Source: an uncultured Syntrophomonas sp. (lineage in GTDB: Bacteria; Bacillota; Syntrophomonadia; Syntrophomonadales; Syntrophomonadaceae). Taken from it: a stretch of 62,015 nt of DNA. Of this stretch, positions 2,017 to 54,219 are shown one piece after another; position 1 is the first letter of the stretch, and each line of letters begins with the position of its first letter. The stretch covers positions 1 through 62,015 of the forward strand of contig CAZOZX010000001.1 of NCBI GenBank assembly GCA_964584415.1, written 5' to 3'. The notes under the pieces were generated by a model that worked only from the letters and a program-made list of their open reading frames with translations, had not been told where the DNA came from and did no database searches. The translations under genes and the position numbers were made by a program.

Positions 2017-3090
2017 TTAGCCTGCACGATAGGGGCTGAAAATCTTTCCCGTCTCCGGAACCATAGACTGAGGTATATAAATATCCTGGAAAAGATTTAT
2101 ACAATATGCATCGCTCATACCAGAGATATAATCCAAAACCGCCCTTTCCCTACCCTCTTCATCCGCTATTTGGAGGTATAGCGGGCTCATCTTATCGGGA
2201 TATTTCATGTAATACTCGTAAAGATGGGATATTATGAACATGGCTCGATTACGCTCCTCCAAGCATACGGATCCCCGGTATATGTTTTCAAACATGAATT
2301 CCCTTAGTCCCCATAAAGCTCTTTCTATCTCCTTACTCGGTTCAACTACGACCGACTCCTCGGCATCAATCAGCTTACGCGTATGGAATATAGTATCTAT
2401 TACCAGGGTAGCTATCCTTTGGCTATGGGTAACACCCAAAATATCTAATAGTTCTTTGGGAATCTCATCCAGGGTCAATAATCCTGCCCGGATAGCGTCA
2501 TCTATGTCGTGCTGAACGTAGGCTATCTTGTCACTTATTCGGATAACCTGCCCTTCCAGGGTTGAGGCCAATGGCCCACCTTGACCATAACCACTATGAT
2601 GGATGACCCCGTCCAAAACTTCAGCAGTCAGATTTAAACCGCTATGCTCTTTGTGTTGTTCCACCCGGGTCAGAACCCTGATGCTATTCTCGCTGTGGCG
2701 AAAATGACCGCAGCTGATCTCATTTAATATTTGTTCGCCGGCATGGGCAAACGGGGTATGACCAACATCGTGAGCCAGGGCGATAGCTTCAATAAGATCA
2801 AGGTTGAGATTCAGTCCTGCACCTATAGTACGAGCGATTTGGCTCACTTCCAGGGTATGGGTTAGACGAGTTCGGTAATGGTCACCCGGGGGAGCAACAA
2901 ATACCTGGGTTTTGTGTTTTAGACGCCGGAAAGACTTAGAATGGATTATCCGGTCCCTATCTATCATAAAACAGGTACGGATAGGGTCAGGTTCTTCCCT
3001 CTTCTGCCGTCCACCCGAACATTTGGATGGTACCGCCAGTTTGCTAAGACTTGCCGATTCCCTAGCTTCTATTTCCTCCCTTACGGTCAT
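2017..3090 (-). CDS. dGTP triphosphohydrolase-like HD-domain protein
   Basis: 357 aa. FRRLKHKTQVF...DHYRTRLTHTLEVSQIAR...LAHDVGHTPFAHAGE motifs of the dGTPase/HD family. RBS AAGGGGTGA. Confidence 0.85.
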   Translation of the reverse strand: MTVREEIEARESASLSKLAVPSKCSGGRQKREEPDPIRTCFMIDRDRIIHSKSFRRLKHKTQVFVAPPGDHYRTRLTHTLEVSQIARTIGAGLNLNLDLIEAIALAHDVGHTPFAHAGEQILNEISCGHFRHSENSIRVLTRVEQHKEHSGLNLTAEVLDGVIHHSGYGQGGPLASTLEGQVIRISDKIAYVQHDIDDAIRAGLLTLDEIPKELLDILGVTHSQRIATLVIDTIFHTRKLIDAEESVVVEPSKEIERALWGLREFMFENIYRGSVCLEERNRAMFIISHLYEYYMKYPDKMSPLYLQIADEEGRERAVLDYISGMSDAYCINLFQDIYIPQSMVPETGKIFSPYRAG

Positions 3091-38025: not shown

Positions 38026-40311
38026 TTAACGCGAAACCAGGCGCTGACTGTTAACAGAAATATCCAAACCGTTACTGTTTACCGTTACTGCACCATCTCT
38101 ATCAGTACGCAGCACCTTAACCCTCTCCTCAGCCAAGGATTCCAGCACTAAGGGGTGTGGATGTCCAAATGGATTGTCTGCCCCTACGGAAATCACGGCG
38201 TATTTAGGTTGCATCGACTGATAAAATTCCGGGGATAAAGATCCCTTACTGCCATGATGGGGTATCTTTATTAAAGTCACGGGATGCGGCACATATGCGG
38301 CCAGGTCTGATAAGACCGCAGCCGACACATCACCGGTCAATAAAACCGAGAACTGCTTGAAATCAATACTGATAACTACTGAATCACGATTGTTGTCTAA
38401 ACCATCGGAATCAGGTTGAGGATGAAGAACTTTAATATCGAGTTTATCGTCAATCTGAATCGACTTTCCGGCTTCCAGAAACAAACAGGGAACCTTGTTG
38501 TATCGGGCTGCTTCCCGCAATGGCTGATAATCTTCATCCTTTGCCAAGCTAGAAGATATCCCCAGACTTTTAACCGGCATCTCCTCTATAACCTCGACCA
38601 GTCCCTGTACATGGTCCACATCTGGATGGGTACTGATAACCAGGTCTAACTTGCGAATACCTCTATGATGTAAGTAGGGCAATAATCTTTTAGCCCCGAC
38701 ATCGAAAAGCTGGCTCCCTCCGCCATCTACCAGAATGAACCTTCCCCGGGGACTTTTAATCAGAACAGCATCACCCTGGCCAACATCAATAAAAATTATC
38801 TCCATTTCTCCTCTATTGTAGATACCAGGCGGTAGAAAGAGAATTATCAACCAGATTAATAATAATCCTGCTGCTGGTATACAAAACCGGGAACTATGCA
38901 GGCGTAGTGAATACAATAGCAGAGCCAAAGCTGCATAATATAATCCGACCAAGATTGGGCTGGGGCTGGCTACCCAAATATATGCTCCCGGCATCTTTGC
39001 CACCCAATCGACCAACCTTAAAATGAGTTCAATAGACATACCGGCTGGATATATAAATATGGAAGCAATTAACGGCAGCCATATAGAAAAGATACTGGCT
39101 AAAAAGCCAAGGATGACAGCGGCTCCAGAAAGATAGGTGGTTGCTATATTGGTAAGAATTGAGCTAGGTGTAAAAAGATTAAAATGGTAGGCCACCAAGG
39201 GCAGTATCGCCATTTCAGCGCAAATCGGAACCAGGATTATATCCTTGATAAGACCGCGACCCGGAAGGCAAGAGCGTAAGCACGGGAATATATAAACCAA
39301 CCCTGCAGTAGCCAGCATGGTTAATTGAAAACTAAGGTTAAATAATTGCATCGGATCGAAAAGTAAAATAGCCGATCCGGAAATCGCCAAAGCGTTCAGG
39401 AGACCGTTTTCTCGCCCGCTCAAATAGGCCAACAATCCCAAGATTCCCATAAGAACGGCTCGAATAACCGGGGGTGGCCAACCCACCATAGCACCATATA
39501 CTATTAAGCTGGTCACCCCAGCTACAAACTTACCCTTGTTTTTTGATCCCGTCAAACCAGCCAGCCAATTGACTAGAACCAACAGAAATCCGACATGCAA
39601 TCCGCCTACTGAAAAAAGATGAACTATACCGGTCTTCTGAAAATCCTCATACTGCTGGTCATCCATTCCTGCCCGGCCACCCCACAACATGCCGAGTAAA
39701 ACCGAAGCCTCCTGTGAAGGCAATTCCGTCCGGGTAAATTTTTCAGCTCTACTGCGTAAGGAATCTACCCACCTGATAACGCCGCTGGCTTTTTGGACAT
39801 TCCGGGCCTGGGCCGGATCTTTAACAGTCAAATTGTAGTAAATACCCTGGTTGGCTAAATAGGTTGGAAAATCAAATTCTCCGGGATTTCCCGGGGAGCG
39901 GGGTGGTTTCAACATGCCCTCCAGATTCAAACGATCCCCCCGGGTAAAATCCACCGGGAAAAGACATACAACCCGTATTTTGTGCTGATACGGAGATTCG
40001 CTTTCCGACTCAATTACGAAAACTGTCTTTTGCCCATCAAAATAGGGAATGCTGTCCACTCTTCCGTTTATCTGGACCCCGGTCTGCTCCGGTAGACTGC
40101 CAAGGGGAAGCGGGGCTGCGACCTGGTACAATAGCAGACCTATAAAGATGAAACCCACTATCCAGGCTAGAGAGGGACGTCTTTTAGAACAAAGGCTCAT
40201 ACCTAACACTATTATTAACAACAATGTCAGTAAAAACAGCCAGGCTCTATAATGAGCTAAACAGATGCCCACCGCGAGACAAATAAATATTGCTGACCAT
40301 GAAATCTTCAT
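38026..40311 (-). CDS. comEC: DNA internalization competence protein ComEC/Rec2
   Basis: 761 aa. Polytopic competence domain plus C-terminal metallo-beta-lactamase domain (STHPDVDHVQG). Confidence 0.9.
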   Translation of the reverse strand: MKISWSAIFICLAVGICLAHYRAWLFLLTLLLIIVLGMSLCSKRRPSLAWIVGFIFIGLLLYQVAAPLPLGSLPEQTGVQINGRVDSIPYFDGQKTVFVIESESESPYQHKIRVVCLFPVDFTRGDRLNLEGMLKPPRSPGNPGEFDFPTYLANQGIYYNLTVKDPAQARNVQKASGVIRWVDSLRSRAEKFTRTELPSQEASVLLGMLWGGRAGMDDQQYEDFQKTGIVHLFSVGGLHVGFLLVLVNWLAGLTGSKNKGKFVAGVTSLIVYGAMVGWPPPVIRAVLMGILGLLAYLSGRENGLLNALAISGSAILLFDPMQLFNLSFQLTMLATAGLVYIFPCLRSCLPGRGLIKDIILVPICAEMAILPLVAYHFNLFTPSSILTNIATTYLSGAAVILGFLASIFSIWLPLIASIFIYPAGMSIELILRLVDWVAKMPGAYIWVASPSPILVGLYYAALALLLYSLRLHSSRFCIPAAGLLLIWLIILFLPPGIYNRGEMEIIFIDVGQGDAVLIKSPRGRFILVDGGGSQLFDVGAKRLLPYLHHRGIRKLDLVISTHPDVDHVQGLVEVIEEMPVKSLGISSSLAKDEDYQPLREAARYNKVPCLFLEAGKSIQIDDKLDIKVLHPQPDSDGLDNNRDSVVISIDFKQFSVLLTGDVSAAVLSDLAAYVPHPVTLIKIPHHGSKGSLSPEFYQSMQPKYAVISVGADNPFGHPHPLVLESLAEERVKVLRTDRDGAVTVNSNGLDISVNSQRLVSR

Positions 40312-40315
40312 CTTA

Positions 40316-40948
40316 CTATCTAACCGTTATTAGTTCCTTCAACTCGGCAAATTTTTTATCCCCGATGCCACTGACTTGATTAAGATCCTCTGGCTTGGCA
40401 AATAGGCCGTGGAGGCTGCGATAATCGACAATTCTCTGCGCTATAGTGGGTCCAATACCTGGAAGCTTGTCATCAAGTTCCTGTACACTGGCGGTATTGA
40501 TATTAACCCGTCCCGTTTGTCCCGCCGATAGGGATGCCCCTGATATGATTCCAGTGCTAACCATAGCTGTTGGTTCTTCCCCGGCAAGGGGAACAACAAT
40601 AGCCATTCCATCGTCCAACTTTTGAGCCAGATTAATCATCTGGAGATTGGCCTCCGGCAAAGCCTTAGCCAATTCCACTGCTTCAACCACACGCGCGTCA
40701 ACCGGCAGTTTATATACTCCGGGCTGGGCAACCGCACCGGTTACGTATACCTGGATTATGCTGGATTCCCCCGCATCTTCAACCTTTTGGTCCGAATCAC
40801 TGGTATTCTCCAGTTCAATTTCCTGTTTCTGATTACTGGCATTTCTGAAATCTCCATACTTCATACCCAAAGTAAAAATCAGTATCAATATCAGGATTCC
40901 AGCTGCCCAAAGGTAACGCTTCTCCAAATTAAGCAATTTTACCACCAC
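40316..40948 (-). CDS. comEA: competence protein ComEA (SLBB + helix-hairpin-helix DNA receptor)
   Basis: 210 aa. N-terminal TM, SLBB region (VYVTGAVAQPGVYKL), C-terminal HhH (NINTASVQELDDKLPGIGPTIAQRIVDYR). Confidence 0.85.
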   Translation of the reverse strand: MVVKLLNLEKRYLWAAGILILILIFTLGMKYGDFRNASNQKQEIELENTSDSDQKVEDAGESSIIQVYVTGAVAQPGVYKLPVDARVVEAVELAKALPEANLQMINLAQKLDDGMAIVVPLAGEEPTAMVSTGIISGASLSAGQTGRVNINTASVQELDDKLPGIGPTIAQRIVDYRSLHGLFAKPEDLNQVSGIGDKKFAELKELITVR

Positions 40949-41088
40949 CTTCTACTAATAGTTCTCCGTTTTCCTAATAATCCCTTTTTTGTTATATAGT
41001 TGTTGGTTGAAATTGGGCCGCTTATTGGGTAAAACGCTATGGCCGGGATTTCGGTGCTGGCCATCATCGGACCAAAAATCATAATTGG

Positions 41089-41117
41089 TTGACTTTGAAG
41101 GTTTCTTATCATATAAT
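41089..41117 (+). promoter_or_regulatory. near-consensus sigma-A promoter of the leuS leader
   Basis: TTGACT (41089-41094), exactly 17 nt, TATAAT (41112-41117). Confidence 0.75.
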
Positions 41118-41297
41118 GGCTAATGTCAATTAAAGAAAAAACATGCAATGAGCCGGAGTAGTAGGCAATTCTTAGACAGAGAGTCACCGTTTGGTGGAAG
41201 GTGGCAAGTATATTGTCGAACTCGCCGGGGAGCATCCCAGGTGAATACAGTAGCCTGAGACGGTTTACACCGTTACAAGAATGAGTGGTCAAGTTGT

Positions 41298-41373
41298 GGG
41301 GCTATGGCGAAGTTGGGATCGCGCTTGAATGGCATTCAAGAGGCCGTGGGTTCGAATCCCACTAGCTCCACCA
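41298..41373 (+). tRNA. tRNA-Ala (anticodon GGC), CCA encoded
   Basis: Hand-folded cloverleaf. Acceptor stem GGGGCUA/UAGCUCC with G3:U70. U8. D arm GCGA-AGUUGGGA-UCGC (A14, G18G19, A21). Anticodon arm CUUGA-AUGGCAU-UCAAG. Variable loop AGGCC. T arm GUGGG-UUCGAAU-CCCAC. A73 plus CCA. Closely resembles E. coli tRNA-Ala(GGC), including the A32-U38 anticodon loop. Confidence 0.85.
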
Positions 41374-41415
41374 TATTTAACTTGTCAAACTGGGTGGCAC
41401 CGCGGGAAAACAACT

Positions 41416-41444
41416 CTCGTCCCTATTAGGGATGAGGGTTTTTT
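41416..41444 (+). terminator. T-box terminator of the leuS leader
   Basis: CUCGUCCCU-AUU-AGGGAUGAG (9 bp, one G-U) followed by GGUUUUUU. 30 nt upstream of the leuS ATG. Confidence 0.75.
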
Positions 41445-41474
41445 AGTTTCCTAATAAAAAACAAGGAGGCTTAT

Positions 41475-43952
41475 ATGGACAATAATTATGATTTCAAAAC
41501 AATTGAGCCCAAATGGCAAAACTACTGGTTCGACAACCAATTCTTCAAGGTTACAGAAGATCCTAATAAGCCCAAGTACTACGATTTAGAGATGTTTCCC
41601 TATCCCTCCGGCAACCTCCATATGGGGCATGTACGCAATTACGCCATCGGCGATGTTGTCGCCAGGTTCAAGACCATGAACGGATTTAACGTTTTGCATC
41701 CTATGGGCTGGGATGCCTTTGGTCTTCCCGCTGAAAATGCGGCCATAAAACATGGTCACCATCCTGCCCAATGGACCTATGCCAATATCGAGAACATGAA
41801 AGTGCAGCTCAAGACCCTGGGAATCAGCTATGACTGGGATCGTGAATTAGCCAGCTGCAAGCCCGATTATTATAAATTTACCCAATGGATGTTCTTAAAA
41901 CTATATGAACATGACTTGGCCTATAAAAAGAGCGCGGCGGTTAACTGGTGTCCTTCTTGCGCGACTGTGCTGGCCAATGAGCAGGTTGTGGACGGCGCTT
42001 GTGAGCGGTGTGACACGGTGGTAACCAAGCGCAATCTTACCCAATGGTTCTTCAAAATAACCGACTATGCCCAGAGGCTCCTGGACGACCTGGAAATATT
42101 GCCGGGTTGGCCTGATAAAGTTAAGACCATGCAGCGCAACTGGATAGGTCGCAGCGAGGGTTGTCAGTTCGATCTGGCCATAGAAAACAGCAGTGAAATA
42201 ATGACCGTATTTACGACTCGGCCGGATACTGTTTTCGGAATAACTTATATGGTTTTGTCCCCGGAACATCCGCTAGTAGAAACGATCAGCAAGGGCACTG
42301 CCCAAGAGGAGCAGGTTAAGGAATTCGTACACCGTATGCAGTTTGTCAGTGATATCGACCGGACCTCTAACGAAGCCGAGAAAGAGGGGGTCTTCACGGG
42401 AGCTTATGCTATTAATCCCATGAACGGCGAACGTATACCGATCTGGATAGCCAACTATGTTTTGATCGATTATGGCACCGGCGCCATTATGGCGGTCCCC
42501 GCGCATGATCAACGTGACTTTGAGTTTGCCCGCAAGTATGAACTGCCGATCAAGGTAGTAATTAAAGCTCCGGATTCACCCAGTGATGGTGCAAGTATGA
42601 CCGAAGCTTATGTTGAACATGGCTGCATGGTAAACTCGAGTATTTTTGATGGATTAAGCGTTGAAGATGGTAAAAAGCAGGTTACTGCCCATATGCAAAA
42701 GGAAGGCTTGGGTCAAGCCATGATCAATTTCCGTTTGCGGGACTGGCTGATCTCGCGCCAACGCTACTGGGGCTGTCCAATCCCGATGATCTACTGCGAA
42801 AAATGCGGTTTGAATCCGGTTCCCGAGGCTGACCTGCCGGTATTATTGCCGGAGGACGTAGAGTTCAGGCCTTCCGGGGAATCACCACTTAACTATGTTG
42901 AATCCTTCTATAAAACCGAATGTCCGGTCTGCGGCGGCCCAGCCCGACGGGAAACAGATACCATGGATACCTTTGTATGTTCTTCCTGGTATTTTGATAG
43001 ATTCTGTGATCCCCATAACAGCACCCTGCCCTTCAGTAAAGAAGCGATTGATTACTGGATGCCGGTCGACCAATATATCGGCGGGGTGGAGCATGCCATT
43101 CTGCACCTGATGTACTCCCGGTTTTTCACCAAGTTCTTGCATGACATCAATATCTTATCGTGTGACGAGCCATTTACCAACCTGCTCACCCAGGGTATGG
43201 TTTTGAAAGACGGATCCAAAATGTCCAAATCCAAAGGGAACGTTGTGAGTCCAGAGGATATAATCAACACTTACGGAGCTGATACCGCTCGTCTGTTCAT
43301 CTTGTTTGCCTCTCCTCCCGAACGCGATCTGGAATGGAGTGATCAGGGGGTGGAAGGATCGTCCCGTTTCCTAAACCGGGTATGGCGGGCGGTTACCAGT
43401 TGTGCTGAGGATATCAAGGATATCAGCATCCCAGCCAGTTTCGGCGAACTGGACCCGGAAGCACGTAAGCTGCGCTATAAAACTCATGCTACCATCAAAA
43501 AGGTCAGCGAGGATATCGAACAGCGATTTAACTTCAATACCGCTATTAGTGCCATTATGGAATTGAATAATATGCTCAACACTTATCTGGATCAGGATGA
43601 GCAAGACCTTTCGGTTCTAAAAGAGGCAGTGGAAACCATGATCGTTTTGTTAAGCCCGTTTTCACCGCATATCTGCGAGGAACTCTGGCAAATTTGCGGC
43701 CATTCACAGAGCATATACCATGTAAGCTGGCCTCGTTATGAAGCCGAGGCTTTGGTGCAGGATGAGATTGAAATTGCTATCCAGATAAGCGGCAAAGTAC
43801 GGGATCGCATGGTGGTACCGGCATCGACATCAGAAGAGGAATTGAAAAGCCTGGCCCTGGCCCAGCCCAAAGTACAAGAACTGTTAGCCGGCAAGCAGGT
43901 AATAAAGGCTATTGTAGTCCCGGCAAAACTGGTTAACATTGTAGCCAAATAA
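41475..43952 (+). CDS. leuS: leucine--tRNA ligase
   Basis: 825 aa. HMGH (HIGH) and KMSKS motifs, CP1 editing domain. RBS AAGGAGG. Confidence 0.97.
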
Positions 43953-54072: not shown

Positions 54073-54219
54073 TTATACACCTCCACATTTCTTAGACTCG
54101 CCGGTTCCCAGGTAGGCCGGGCAGCCATTTGTAAAAACCTGAACCGAGCGGTTGCAAAAACGTGCAACCATTTATCAAATTAACATATCCGTTGGTTCGA
54201 GTCAAGGTAAAAGAAATTC
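54073..54219 (-). promoter_or_regulatory. structured 5' leader of rplU-rpmA (possible L21-leader-type element)
   Basis: 147-nt gap containing the hairpin GGUUGCA-CGUUUU-UGCAACC and a GC-rich CCGG...CCGG region before the GGAGGUG RBS. The family assignment is not verifiable by eye. Confidence 0.3.

What the first reader, a model, noticed from the sequence alone, without database searches (positions are those of the whole stretch)
41089..41474. A canonical tRNA-Ala(GGC) gene is embedded inside the leuS T-box riboswitch, at the Stem III position
Seen directly in the sequence. One transcription unit starts at a near-consensus promoter (TTGACT-17-TATAAT, 41089-41117). It then contains, in order: (a) a complete T-box sensing domain, comprising Stem I with specifier loop AGUAGUA / GAA-CUC-G (Leu codon CUC at 41221-41223), an AGAGAG bulge, a GGUGGAAGG distal loop, AGUA at 41249-41252 and the F-box CCGUUA at 41270-41275; (b) a 76-nt textbook cloverleaf at 41298-41373 where a short Stem III hairpin is expected; (c) 13 nt later, the T-box sequence AAACUGGGUGGCACCGCGGG (41387-41406) and the terminator (41416-41444 including the U-run), 30 nt before the leuS ATG. 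The cloverleaf has G3:U70 (the AlaRS identity pair), U8, A14, G18G19, A21, anticodon loop AUGGCAU (GGC, with the A32-U38 pair known from E. coli tRNA-Ala GGC), T-loop UUCGAAU, A73 and an encoded CCA. It therefore looks like a functional tRNA gene rather than a decayed remnant. Inference: the terminator lies downstream of the tRNA, so the tRNA is transcribed in both the OFF (terminated) and ON (read-through) states. The leader would then double as a constitutive tRNA-Ala precursor driven by a strong promoter. RNase P cleavage at 41297/41298 would physically separate the tRNA-Leu-sensing Stem I from the antiterminator, so sensing would have to be strictly co-transcriptional, or processing could act as a timer. 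The folded tRNA may also stand in structurally for Stem III. I do not know of a described T-box leader that hosts a tRNA gene.
Basis: partly seen in the sequence, partly recalled or inferred. Interest (0 to 1): 0.85.

Follow-up and report, generated by a model that had tools for sequence, protein, structure and literature searches.

The report
tRNA gene nested inside leucine riboswitch
A complete alanine tRNA gene sits inside one hairpin of the tRNA-sensing riboswitch that controls the leucyl-tRNA synthetase gene; the same nested arrangement occurs in bacteria of at least two or three phyla, and I found no description of it in the papers I could search.

Summary
ARAGORN and Rfam call a tRNA-Ala(GGC) at 41298-41373. 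A full-length T-box (RF00230, 125.5 bits, threshold 93) spans it at 41139-41427, between a near-consensus promoter and the terminator upstream of leuS.

The tRNA does not replace Stem III. It sits in the apical loop of Stem III, and the basal helix and the flanking RRRxG...AA motif are intact.

The arrangement is not a local accident.
- All 8 Syntrophomonadaceae relatives chosen only by LeuS similarity have it, including four named species.
- A generic metagenome scan for any tRNA T-arm followed closely by a T-box sequence found 89 true cases. All were tRNA-Ala(GGC) in a Leu (CUC) T-box upstream of leuS or ilvE-leuS.
- Source labels place these cases in Bacillota, Chloroflexota and Armatimonadota.
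- G3:U70, A73 and the GGC anticodon never vary. The tRNA stems and Stem III both covary.
- A third of the copies lack an encoded CCA, so they need normal tRNA 3' maturation.

Most likely this is a dual-use leader. The tRNA is made in both the terminated and read-through states, and leuS read-through stays under tRNA-Leu control.

No expression data were available, and nine literature searches found no prior description.

The parts
41089..41117 (+). Promoter-like site, TTGACT-17-TATAAT
   Evidence: 11 of 12 matches, the best in 40000-42500. No second + strand promoter-like site before the tRNA.
41139..41282 (+). T-box decoding domain: Stem I with the specifier loop (Leu codon CUC at 41221-41223), Stem II (AGUA at 41249-41252), Stem IIA/B with the F-box CCGUUA at 41270-41275
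   Evidence: Rfam RF00230 alignment, model positions 1 to about 150, high posterior probability; the Stem I and II pairs covary among 9 Syntrophomonadaceae leaders.
41283..41287 (+). GAGUG, the 5' purine string (RRRxG) that flanks Stem III
   Evidence: Read from the sequence. The motif is defined in PMC7583486. GAGUG, GAGCG, AAGUG or AAGAG precedes the helix in most of 89 distinct instances.
41288..41295 (+). Stem III 5' arm, GUCAAGUU
   Evidence: Pairs with 41379-41386: 7 pairs and one U.U mismatch at 41289/41385. The arms covary across loci.
41298..41373 (+). tRNA-Ala gene with anticodon GGC (41331-41333), G3:U70, A73 and encoded CCA; U at position -1
   Evidence: ARAGORN. (RF00005, 66.2 bits); 54 distinct homologues, all stem cells paired, 14 of 21 pairs with compensatory changes. 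G3:U70 and A73 in 90 of 90.
41379..41386 (+). Stem III 3' arm, AACUUGUC, followed by the conserved AA at 41387-41388
   Evidence: AA follows the helix in 77 of 89 distinct instances.
41389..41427 (+). T-box sequence and antiterminator; bulge UGGC at 41395-41398
   Evidence: model positions 183-219; the bulge is UGGU in 88 of 90 instances. UGGC occurs only here and in the closest relative L206.
41412..41446 (+). Intrinsic terminator: 13-pair stem plus U-run. It overlaps the 3' half of the antiterminator.
   Evidence: It is part of the minimum-free-energy fold.
41463..43952 (+). Shine-Dalgarno AAGGAGG (41463-41469) and leuS (41475-43952, 825 aa)
   Evidence: Pfam LeuRS editing domain, class I synthetase core and anticodon-binding domain.

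Best explanation
This is a dual-use leader. A canonical, transcription-terminating T-box riboswitch specific for tRNA-Leu (specifier CUC) controls leuS. A genuine tRNA-Ala(GGC) gene is lodged in the apical loop of its Stem III.

Shown by the sequence:
- There is one promoter, and the only terminator lies downstream of the tRNA. Every transcript, terminated or read-through, therefore contains the tRNA precursor.
- All parts of the T-box that touch its ligand are intact, including the Stem III basal helix and its RRRxG...AA flanks.

Inferred:
- RNase P cuts at 41297/41298. The 3' end is matured by exonucleases here. In the third of homologues without an encoded CCA it would be matured by RNase Z and the CCA-adding enzyme.
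- The leader therefore supplies tRNA-Ala(GGC) constitutively from a strong promoter, while leuS read-through still depends on uncharged tRNA-Leu.
- The Stem III loop is a permissive site. Stem III varies in stem and loop and is known to accept insertions.
- Because the insert sits inside a hairpin, excising it leaves a nicked helix that can still hold the two riboswitch halves together.
- The terminator hairpin remains near the new 5' end of the leuS mRNA. This resembles the processed B. subtilis thrS leader.
For: Anatomy in the window.

The minimum-free-energy fold of the leader contains the Stem III arms, a full cloverleaf and the terminator together.

Conservation without selection bias:
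- L001, L002, L201 (Syntrophomonas curvata), L202 (Thermosyntropha lipolytica DSM 11003), L203, L204 (S. palmitatica), L205 (LeuS identical to that of S. zehnderi OL-4) and L206 were picked by LeuS similarity alone.
- All 8 have a T-box above Rfam's threshold spanning a tRNA-Ala(GGC).

Breadth:
- 89 are tRNA-Ala(GGC) inside a T-box, 31 are chance hits, and none carries another tRNA.
- leuS, or an ilvE-like gene followed by leuS, lies downstream wherever the contig reaches far enough.
- The specifier is CUC in essentially all instances.
- Source labels give Chloroflexota (Ca. Limnocylindria, Anaerolineae), Armatimonadota and Bacillota including Pelotomaculum. Halonatronum also has it (L033).

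The tRNA looks functional:
- G3:U70 in 90 of 90, A73 in 90 of 90, anticodon GGC in all.
- Among 54 distinct sequences, 100% of stem cells are paired and 14 of 21 pairs show compensatory changes.
- Position -1 is U in 61 of 83.
- CCA is encoded in only 57 of 90. The rest can only become tRNAs through standard 3' maturation.

The riboswitch is kept:
- Stem III arms covary. Duplex energy averages -11.7 kcal/mol, against -8.1 +/- 0.27 for mismatched partners.
- 66 of 89 instances have 5 or more perfect basal pairs anchored at the AA, with several pair types at each position.
- The RRRxG and AA flanks are kept (motif from PMC7583486).

Literature:
- Stem III is integral to the discriminator and is a known site of insertions (PMC7583486).
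- Cleavage of a T-box leader upstream of the terminator stabilises thrS mRNA, and RNase P cleaves other riboswitches (PMC7913692).
Against: - There are no expression or processing data. Maturation, aminoacylation and riboswitch activity are all inferred.
- I could not test whether this is the genome's only tRNA-Ala(GGC) gene.
- The metagenome instances were found with a pattern that requires a tRNA T-arm and a T-box sequence, and then with ARAGORN. Perfect cloverleaf pairing there is partly a result of how they were selected. The invariant anticodon and G3:U70 are not.
- The window and its nearest relative L206 depart from the family at two functional positions: the bulge is UGGC rather than UGGU, and Stem III has a U.U mismatch. 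The riboswitch may be weakened in this lineage.
- Nothing explains why the passenger is always tRNA-Ala(GGC) and the host is always the leucine T-box.
- tRNA-Ala(GGC) also lies next to leuS in genomes with no T-box (L030, L049, L070). The linkage may therefore have a cause beyond a permissive loop.
Confidence: 0.75

Rival explanations
1. Processing is part of the regulation. Excision of the tRNA by RNase P and RNase Z or exonucleases would be a working step of the switch rather than a side effect. It might set a time window for the tRNA-Leu decision, release the tightly bound Stem I-tRNA-Leu complex, or create a leuS mRNA 5' end protected by the terminator hairpin. It might also tie leuS transcription to a growth-rate-controlled tRNA promoter.
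For: - The arrangement has persisted across phyla and always with the same tRNA.
- In 13 loci the whole T-box lies between tRNA-Ala(CGC) and tRNA-Ala(GGC), with only 3 nt between the first tRNA and the T-box in L174. There the riboswitch RNA itself is a tRNA-operon spacer, delimited by tRNA-processing enzymes.
- Leader cleavage is known to control stability of thrS and met mRNAs, and RNase P cleaves other riboswitches (PMC7913692).
- tRNA-Ala(GGC) stays next to leuS even without a T-box.
Against: - No direct evidence.
- Many leuS T-boxes work with a short Stem III and no tRNA. About 19 of 23 leuS T-boxes in the LeuS-selected genome sample lack it.
- L008, a Pelotomaculum species, has no tRNA and a 60-nt non-tRNA insert in Stem III, while L128 and L142, whose LeuS is about 77% identical to L008's, have the tRNA.
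Confidence: 0.2
2. It is a tRNA-shaped structural module only. The cloverleaf would stay in the leader as an extension of Stem III and would never become a working tRNA.
For: - It sits at a structural position in the riboswitch.
- tRNA-like structures in mRNAs and leaders are known. This rests on general knowledge, not on a test here.
Against: - A purely structural role would not keep the GGC anticodon, G3:U70, A73, U8, A14, G18G19 and the T-loop invariant across phyla.
- The state of the 3' end varies as in ordinary tRNA genes, with CCA encoded in 57 of 90.
- Position -1 is U in 73% of instances. From my own knowledge this matches RNase P substrates.
Confidence: 0.04
3. The embedded tRNA acts in cis as a ligand or competitor. 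Its acceptor end would pair with the T-box bulge, or its anticodon with the GCC that follows the specifier.
For: - tRNA-Ala and tRNA-Leu both have A73. An ACCA 3' end would therefore match a UGGU bulge.
- The bases after the specifier often read GCC.
Against: - 33 of 90 copies have no encoded CCA.
- The 3' end is not free until processed, and from the literature the discriminator senses a free 3' end.
- The 'GCC' is the conserved purine plus the CC of the Stem I helix. It reads GUC or ACC in several instances, both with and without the tRNA.
Confidence: 0.01
4. It is a recent neutral insertion, or two unrelated elements that happen to be adjacent.
For: None found.
Against: - One covariance-model alignment covers both halves of the T-box.
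- The Stem III arms pair across the insert and covary.
- The arrangement is present in 8 of 8 family relatives and in other phyla.
Confidence: 0.01

Closest known systems
Canonical transcriptional T-box riboswitches of aminoacyl-tRNA synthetase genes (Rfam RF00230; for example B. subtilis tyrS, leuS, glyQS)
   Same: - Stem I with specifier loop.
- Stem II, IIA/B and F-box.
- RRRxG-Stem III-AA motif.
- T-box bulge.
- Competing antiterminator and terminator.
- The downstream gene matches the specifier.
(PMC7583486)
   Different: Stem III normally ends in a short loop. Here its loop holds a 76-nt tRNA gene for a different amino acid.
Lineage-specific insertions in T-box discriminator domains (staphylococcal glyS 'stem Sa'; insertions in Stem III and helix A2 of translational T-boxes)
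   Same: Extra RNA is tolerated inside the discriminator domain (PMC9177973; PMC7583486).
   Different: Those insertions are plain helices with no coding role of their own. This one is a separate gene whose product has to be cut out.
tRNA genes co-transcribed with other RNAs: tRNA-Ile and tRNA-Ala in 16S-23S rRNA spacers, and the E. coli thrU-tyrU-glyT-thrT-tufB operon (my own knowledge)
   Same: A tRNA is released by RNase P and 3' processing from a longer precursor that also carries another functional RNA or mRNA.
   Different: Here the tRNA lies inside a folded regulatory RNA, within one of its helices. A conditional terminator sits between the tRNA and the mRNA.
Processing of T-box and other riboswitch leaders (B. 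subtilis thrS; S. aureus met leader cut by RNase III; RNase P cleavage of the pbuE adenine riboswitch)
   Same: Endonucleolytic cleavage within or next to the leader decides the fate of the downstream mRNA (PMC7913692).
   Different: In those cases no functional RNA is released. Here cleavage sites would be set by a tRNA fold, and cleavage is inferred, not shown.
Intervening sequences in 23S rRNA helices, excised without religation (my own knowledge)
   Same: An insert in a hairpin loop is removed and the remaining helix holds the fragments together.
   Different: The host RNA is different, the enzyme is RNase III, and the excised piece has no function.

Membership tests
T-box riboswitch (RF00230), transcriptional class | Match to the family covariance model at or above the curated threshold, over the whole model | tested here: met
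   125.5 bits against 93, model positions 1-219, E = 1.9e-27.
T-box riboswitch (RF00230), transcriptional class | Specifier codon in the Stem I loop that matches the amino acid of the regulated gene | tested here: met
   GAA-CUC-G at 41218-41224, with leuS downstream. CUC in essentially all homologues.
T-box riboswitch (RF00230), transcriptional class | Stem III flanked by 5'-RRRxG and AA-3' (discriminator domain) | tested here: met
   GAGUG at 41283-41287, helix 41288-41295 with 41379-41386, AA at 41387-41388. Conserved and covarying. Motif from PMC7583486.
T-box riboswitch (RF00230), transcriptional class | T-box bulge UGGN in which N pairs with the discriminator base of the cognate tRNA | tested here: inconclusive
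   The window has UGGC (41395-41398). 88 of 90 homologues have UGGU, which fits A73 of tRNA-Leu. The organism's tRNA-Leu sequence is not in the window.
T-box riboswitch (RF00230), transcriptional class | Mutually exclusive antiterminator and intrinsic terminator | tested here: met
   Terminator 41412-41440 plus U-run overlaps the 3' strand of the antiterminator.
T-box riboswitch (RF00230), transcriptional class | Read-through induced by uncharged cognate tRNA | not testable with these tools
   Needs in vitro transcription or reporter assays.
Bacterial elongator tRNA-Ala | Cloverleaf with the universal conserved bases (U8, A14, G18G19, A21, T-loop) | tested here: met
   The invariant columns are listed.
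Bacterial elongator tRNA-Ala | G3:U70 identity pair and A73 | tested here: met
   Present in the window and in 90 of 90 instances.
Bacterial elongator tRNA-Ala | Alanine anticodon kept under selection | tested here: met
   GGC in every instance. The anticodon stem varies through compensatory changes at all 5 pairs.
Bacterial elongator tRNA-Ala | Maturation, aminoacylation and use in translation | not testable with these tools
   Needs tRNA-seq, Northern blots or charging assays.
tRNA-like structural mimic (considered) | tRNA shape kept while the anticodon and identity elements are free to drift | tested here: not met
   The anticodon and identity elements are invariant across phyla.

The most novel reading that the evidence does not exclude
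The nested tRNA may be more than a passenger. The link between tRNA-Ala(GGC) and leuS would then be selected for a mechanistic reason across phyla. The riboswitch would be built to be cut: RNase P and 3' processing would turn it into a split T-box held together by Stem III, would release the sensing domain, and would leave a hairpin-protected leuS mRNA. LeuRS synthesis would also be tied to a tRNA-operon promoter. In some Chloroflexota-type loci the whole riboswitch would in effect be a tRNA-operon spacer.
Probability: 0.25. Interest if true: 0.92.

Novelty: new variant of a known kind. Interest (0 to 1): 0.85.

Why it matters
- It is a riboswitch that senses one tRNA (Leu) while containing the gene for another (Ala) inside one of its own functional helices. 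That puts RNase P and RNase Z processing and co-transcriptional riboswitch folding on the same short stretch of RNA.
- It shows that the Stem III loop of the T-box discriminator can accept a 76-nt folded domain. This is useful for structural and engineering work.
- It is a natural test of whether a T-box can work as a nicked or split RNA.
- It raises an unexplained, phylum-spanning link between tRNA-Ala(GGC) and leuS.
- It has practical consequences. Several of these T-boxes fall below Rfam's threshold because of the insert (73-84 bits in L174, L207 and L033), so they may be missed by annotation.
- Cultured strains carry it (Syntrophomonas curvata, S. palmitatica, Thermosyntropha lipolytica; the locus with LeuS identical to that of S. 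zehnderi OL-4 also does), so it can be tested directly.

Tried and rejected
- **Chance or misannotation.** Rejected by two independent detectors and a full-length covariance-model match.
- **Recent insertion.** Rejected: 8 of 8 LeuS-selected relatives and other phyla have it.
- **A general habit of tRNAs sitting in T-boxes.** Rejected: the identity-neutral scan found only tRNA-Ala(GGC). The single Tyr (L150) and Gln (L178) hits have no T-box context and unrelated downstream genes.
- **The embedded CCA pairs in cis with the T-box bulge.** Rejected as a general mechanism, because 33 of 90 copies encode no CCA.
- **A two-codon specifier (CUC followed by GCC) that reads the embedded anticodon.** Rejected. 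The GCC is the conserved purine plus the Stem I CC, and it varies to GUC or ACC.
- **RNAalifold on 9 leaders.** It recovered Stem I, Stem II, the cloverleaf and the terminator but mis-paired the Stem III region. I used anchored pair counting instead.
- **Identifying the source record.** The exact LeuS sequence is in the protein collection (P0121), but no contig is on record. The organism is placed in Syntrophomonadaceae only through the names of related proteins.
- **Literature.** Nine full-text searches and six papers read gave no description of a tRNA gene inside a T-box. Two comparative T-box papers from subscription journals, which I recalled as Vitreschak 2008 and Gutierrez-Preciado 2009, were requested under PMC ids recalled from memory and were not held. 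Prior mention cannot be excluded.
Full report

Yes. ARAGORN finds one tRNA in the whole 62-kb window: tRNA-Ala with anticodon GGC at 41298-41373 on the + strand. Rfam scores the tRNA at 66.2 bits (E = 3.4e-12). It also reports a T-box leader at 41139-41427 with 125.5 bits (gathering score 93, E = 1.9e-27) covering model positions 1-219. In that alignment the tRNA is an insertion of about 95 nt in the loop of the hairpin the model calls Stem III.

The promoter-like site TTGACT-17-TATAAT at 41089-41117 matches 11 of 12 positions and is the best in the region. The only + strand terminator-like site before leuS is 41412-41440 with its U-run. There is no other promoter-like or terminator-like site between them.

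leuS is the ORF 41475-43952, 825 aa, with the LeuRS editing domain, class I core and anticodon-binding domain.

**2. The exact anatomy**

The tRNA does not replace Stem III. The order is:
- GAGUG, 41283-41287
- Stem III 5' arm GUCAAGUU, 41288-41295
- GU linker
- tRNA, 41298-41373
- UAUUU linker
- Stem III 3' arm AACUUGUC, 41379-41386
- AA, 41387-41388
- ACU
- GGGUGGCACCGCG

This is the 5'-RRRxG-Stem III-AA-3' arrangement. The literature describes it as part of the aminoacylation-sensing discriminator domain (PMC7583486). The tRNA therefore occupies the apical loop of an otherwise normal Stem III. The minimum-free-energy fold of the leader contains the Stem III arms, a complete cloverleaf and the terminator at once.

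**3. Close relatives**

A LeuS-based scan of one genome per species placed the window nearest to Syntrophomonadaceae (73% identity). Protein names agree, and an identical LeuS is on record as P0121.

I fetched leuS loci chosen only by LeuS similarity:
- L001 and L002, metagenome-assembled genomes
- L201, Syntrophomonas curvata, complete chromosome
- L202, Thermosyntropha lipolytica DSM 11003
- L203, a 3.78-Mb genome
- L204, S. palmitatica
- L205, LeuS identical to that of S. zehnderi OL-4
- L206, LeuS 86% identical

All eight have a T-box above Rfam's threshold (111-131 bits) spanning a tRNA-Ala(GGC). Aligned, the leaders show compensatory changes in Stem I, Stem II and the tRNA. No close relative lacks the insert.

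**4. Distant relatives and specificity**

I scanned metagenome contigs with a pattern that names no tRNA identity: a generic T-arm (GGTTCRANNCC), 16-46 nt, then the T-box sequence (GGGTGGNAYCGCG).
- 85 have an ARAGORN tRNA-Ala(GGC) at the match.
- 4 more are the same element, cut by a contig end or carrying G33 (L152, L153, L160, L197).
- 31 are chance matches in GC-rich coding DNA. These include the single Tyr and Gln cases, which have no T-box context.
- No other tRNA identity was found inside a T-box.

leuS follows within 57-411 nt in most loci. In about 15 loci another gene comes first, usually a class IV aminotransferase (ilvE-like), and then leuS. The specifier reads GAA-CUC-G in essentially every instance with enough upstream sequence.

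LeuS identity to the window runs from 42% to 83%. Names attached to identical or at least 90% identical proteins give the following placements:
- L088 group: Chloroflexota (Ca. Limnocylindria)
- L100: Anaerolineae
- L124: Armatimonadota
- L115: Bacillota
- L128: a Pelotomaculum thermopropionicum-like organism
- L107: a genome labelled Actinomycetota

An NCBI Limnocylindria contig (L209) and contigs carrying a Chloroflexota-labelled LeuS (L207, L208) show the same layout. Halonatronum saccharophilum (Halanaerobiales; L033) has it with an extra insertion of about 100 nt, and its T-box scores 84 bits.

**5. Is the tRNA a real gene?**

Across 90 instances, G3:U70 and A73 are present in all, and the anticodon is always GGC. 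In 54 distinct sequences every stem cell forms a standard pair, and 14 of 21 pairs show changes on both sides. All five anticodon-stem pairs are among them.

Part of that perfection follows from how the instances were found. The invariant anticodon and identity pair do not.

Position -1 is U in 61 of 83 distinct instances. From my own knowledge this matches bacterial RNase P substrates.

CCA is encoded in 57 of 90. The other 33 have CUA, CCG, CCU and similar at positions 74-76. That is how ordinary tRNA genes vary between lineages. It means those copies can only function after cleavage at the discriminator base and CCA addition.

**6. Is the riboswitch kept?**

The sequence around the tRNA always follows RRRxG, 5' arm, 0 to about 10 nt, tRNA, linker, 3' arm, AA, NNN, GGGUGGUACCGCG.
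- The arms differ widely in sequence but stay complementary. Examples are GGACAAAU/AUUUGUC, GGAGAACGAU/AUCGUUCUC, GGUCGG/CCGGC and GGGUAAAACAC/GUGUUUUAUC.
- Predicted duplex energy averages -11.7 kcal/mol, against -8.1 +/- 0.27 when 5' and 3' flanks from different loci are combined.
- Anchored at the AA, 66 of 89 distinct instances have at least 5 uninterrupted pairs, with several pair types at each position.
- A T-run terminator follows in 70 of 90.
- leuS T-boxes without the tRNA have a short Stem III. They make up about 19 of 23 T-boxes in the LeuS-selected genome sample.

**7. How it most likely works**

Shown: there is one promoter, the tRNA lies upstream of the only terminator, and all ligand-contacting parts of the T-box are intact.

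It follows that both terminated and read-through transcripts carry the tRNA precursor. The leader can therefore serve as a constitutive source of tRNA-Ala(GGC) while leuS expression stays conditional on uncharged tRNA-Leu.

Inferred:
- The Stem III loop is a permissive site. The review notes that Stem III varies in stem and loop and that insertions occur there.
- Because the insert is in a hairpin loop, excision leaves a nicked helix, predicted at -7 to -13 kcal/mol as a duplex. That helix could keep the two halves of the riboswitch together, so cleavage need not abolish sensing.
- After excision the leuS mRNA would begin shortly upstream of the terminator hairpin. This resembles the processed B. 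subtilis thrS leader, where the hairpin stabilises the mRNA (PMC7913692).

**8. Open questions**

- Why always tRNA-Ala(GGC), and why always the leucine T-box? I have no answer.
- In 13 loci a second gene, tRNA-Ala(CGC), lies directly 5' of the T-box. In L174 the order is promoter 2613-2640, tRNA-Ala(CGC) 2660-2735, T-box 2739-3052 with tRNA-Ala(GGC) at 2925-2999. Only 3 nt separate the first tRNA from the riboswitch, so the riboswitch is effectively a spacer in a tRNA operon.
- tRNA-Ala(GGC) also sits just upstream of leuS without any T-box in Desulforudis (L030), a Planctomycetia genome (L049, 18 nt before the ATG) and Omnitrophota (L070). It is divergently oriented in L062 and L071. In total, ten of the 80 LeuS-selected loci have this tRNA within 3 kb of leuS. 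I expect that to be well above chance for a gene present in one or a few copies per genome, but I did not compute an expectation.
- The linkage may therefore be older or more functional than a lucky insertion. I could not decide which came first.

**9. Oddities of this window**

The window and its nearest relative L206 have UGGC in the T-box bulge where 88 of 90 instances have UGGU. They also have a U.U mismatch at the second Stem III pair, where other Syntrophomonadaceae have A-U. Both positions matter for function in the published model. The riboswitch may be tuned differently or weakened in this lineage.

**10. Novelty**

Nine full-text searches and six papers read did not turn up a T-box or other riboswitch that hosts a tRNA gene. 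The papers read include the TBDB database paper, a 2020 structural review and two comparative-genomics papers. Two comparative T-box papers from subscription journals, requested under PMC ids recalled from memory, were not held, so earlier mention cannot be ruled out.

I class the element as a new variant of a known kind: two well-known elements in an arrangement that appears undescribed, is conserved, and is mechanistically provocative.

**11. Limits**

- There are no RNA data of any kind.
- No whole genomes were available to count tRNA-Ala(GGC) copies.
- Taxonomy for the metagenome loci rests on labels attached to similar proteins by their submitters.

Noticed in passing
window 54084-54163 (-): Ribosomal protein L21 leader (RF00559), 53.3 bits against a threshold of 36.
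   Followed up: no
window 41395-41398 and 41289/41385; L206: The window and its closest relative share a T-box bulge of UGGC (UGGU in 88 of 90 other instances) and a U.U mismatch in Stem III. Both are at functionally important positions.
   Followed up: partly
L174 2613-3052; also L084, L089, L097, L098, L100, L102, L106, L130, L132, L164, L177, L190: A second tRNA gene, tRNA-Ala(CGC), lies directly 5' of the T-box on the same strand, with the promoter upstream of it. In L174 only 3 nt separate it from the T-box, so the riboswitch lies between two tRNA-Ala genes.
   Followed up: partly
L030 2854-2928; L049 2909-2982; L070 2889-2962; L062 1684-1760 (-); L071 187-260 (-): tRNA-Ala(GGC) lies next to leuS with no T-box in Desulforudis, a Planctomycetia genome and Omnitrophota. 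It is divergently oriented in two Omnitrophota loci. tRNA-Leu(CAA) is nearby in L049, L062 and L070.
   Followed up: partly
L113 and L168 (upstream of the embedded tRNA): A promoter sits directly before the RRRxG, Stem III and tRNA, and no Stem I or specifier is recognisable. Only the discriminator half of the T-box remains.
   Followed up: no
L033 2712-2830: Halonatronum has about 100 extra nucleotides between the tRNA and the Stem III 3' arm, with AAAATTTCAATTAT occurring twice. Its T-box scores 84.1 bits, below the threshold.
   Followed up: no
L008 about 2770-2835: This Pelotomaculum species has a 60-nt non-tRNA insert in Stem III. L128 and L142, whose LeuS is about 77% identical to L008's, carry the tRNA there. 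This suggests loss or replacement.
   Followed up: no
L160 (embedded tRNA, positions about 470-560 in the orientation that reads toward leuS): An embedded tRNA-Ala with G instead of U at position 33, missed by ARAGORN. It may be a damaged copy or a sequencing error.
   Followed up: no
L088, L104, L141, L185 (just 3' of A73): Limnocylindria-type loci have a mini-hairpin CCGCGAAGCGG immediately after the discriminator base in place of CCA.
   Followed up: no
L084, L113, L144, L146, L161, L174, L193, L195: A class IV aminotransferase (ilvE-like) gene lies between the T-box and leuS. L089 and L130 have an alpha/beta hydrolase there, and L128 has an AMP-binding enzyme.
   Followed up: partly
L099 188-274 (-); L045 6722-6840 (+): A c-di-GMP-I riboswitch and a Moco riboswitch in neighbouring sequence.
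   Followed up: no
L174 2660-2735; L209 603-677: Rfam's tmRNA model gives sub-threshold hits on tRNA-Ala genes. From my own knowledge this is expected from the alanine-tRNA-like domain of tmRNA, so I do not read them as tmRNA genes.
   Followed up: no
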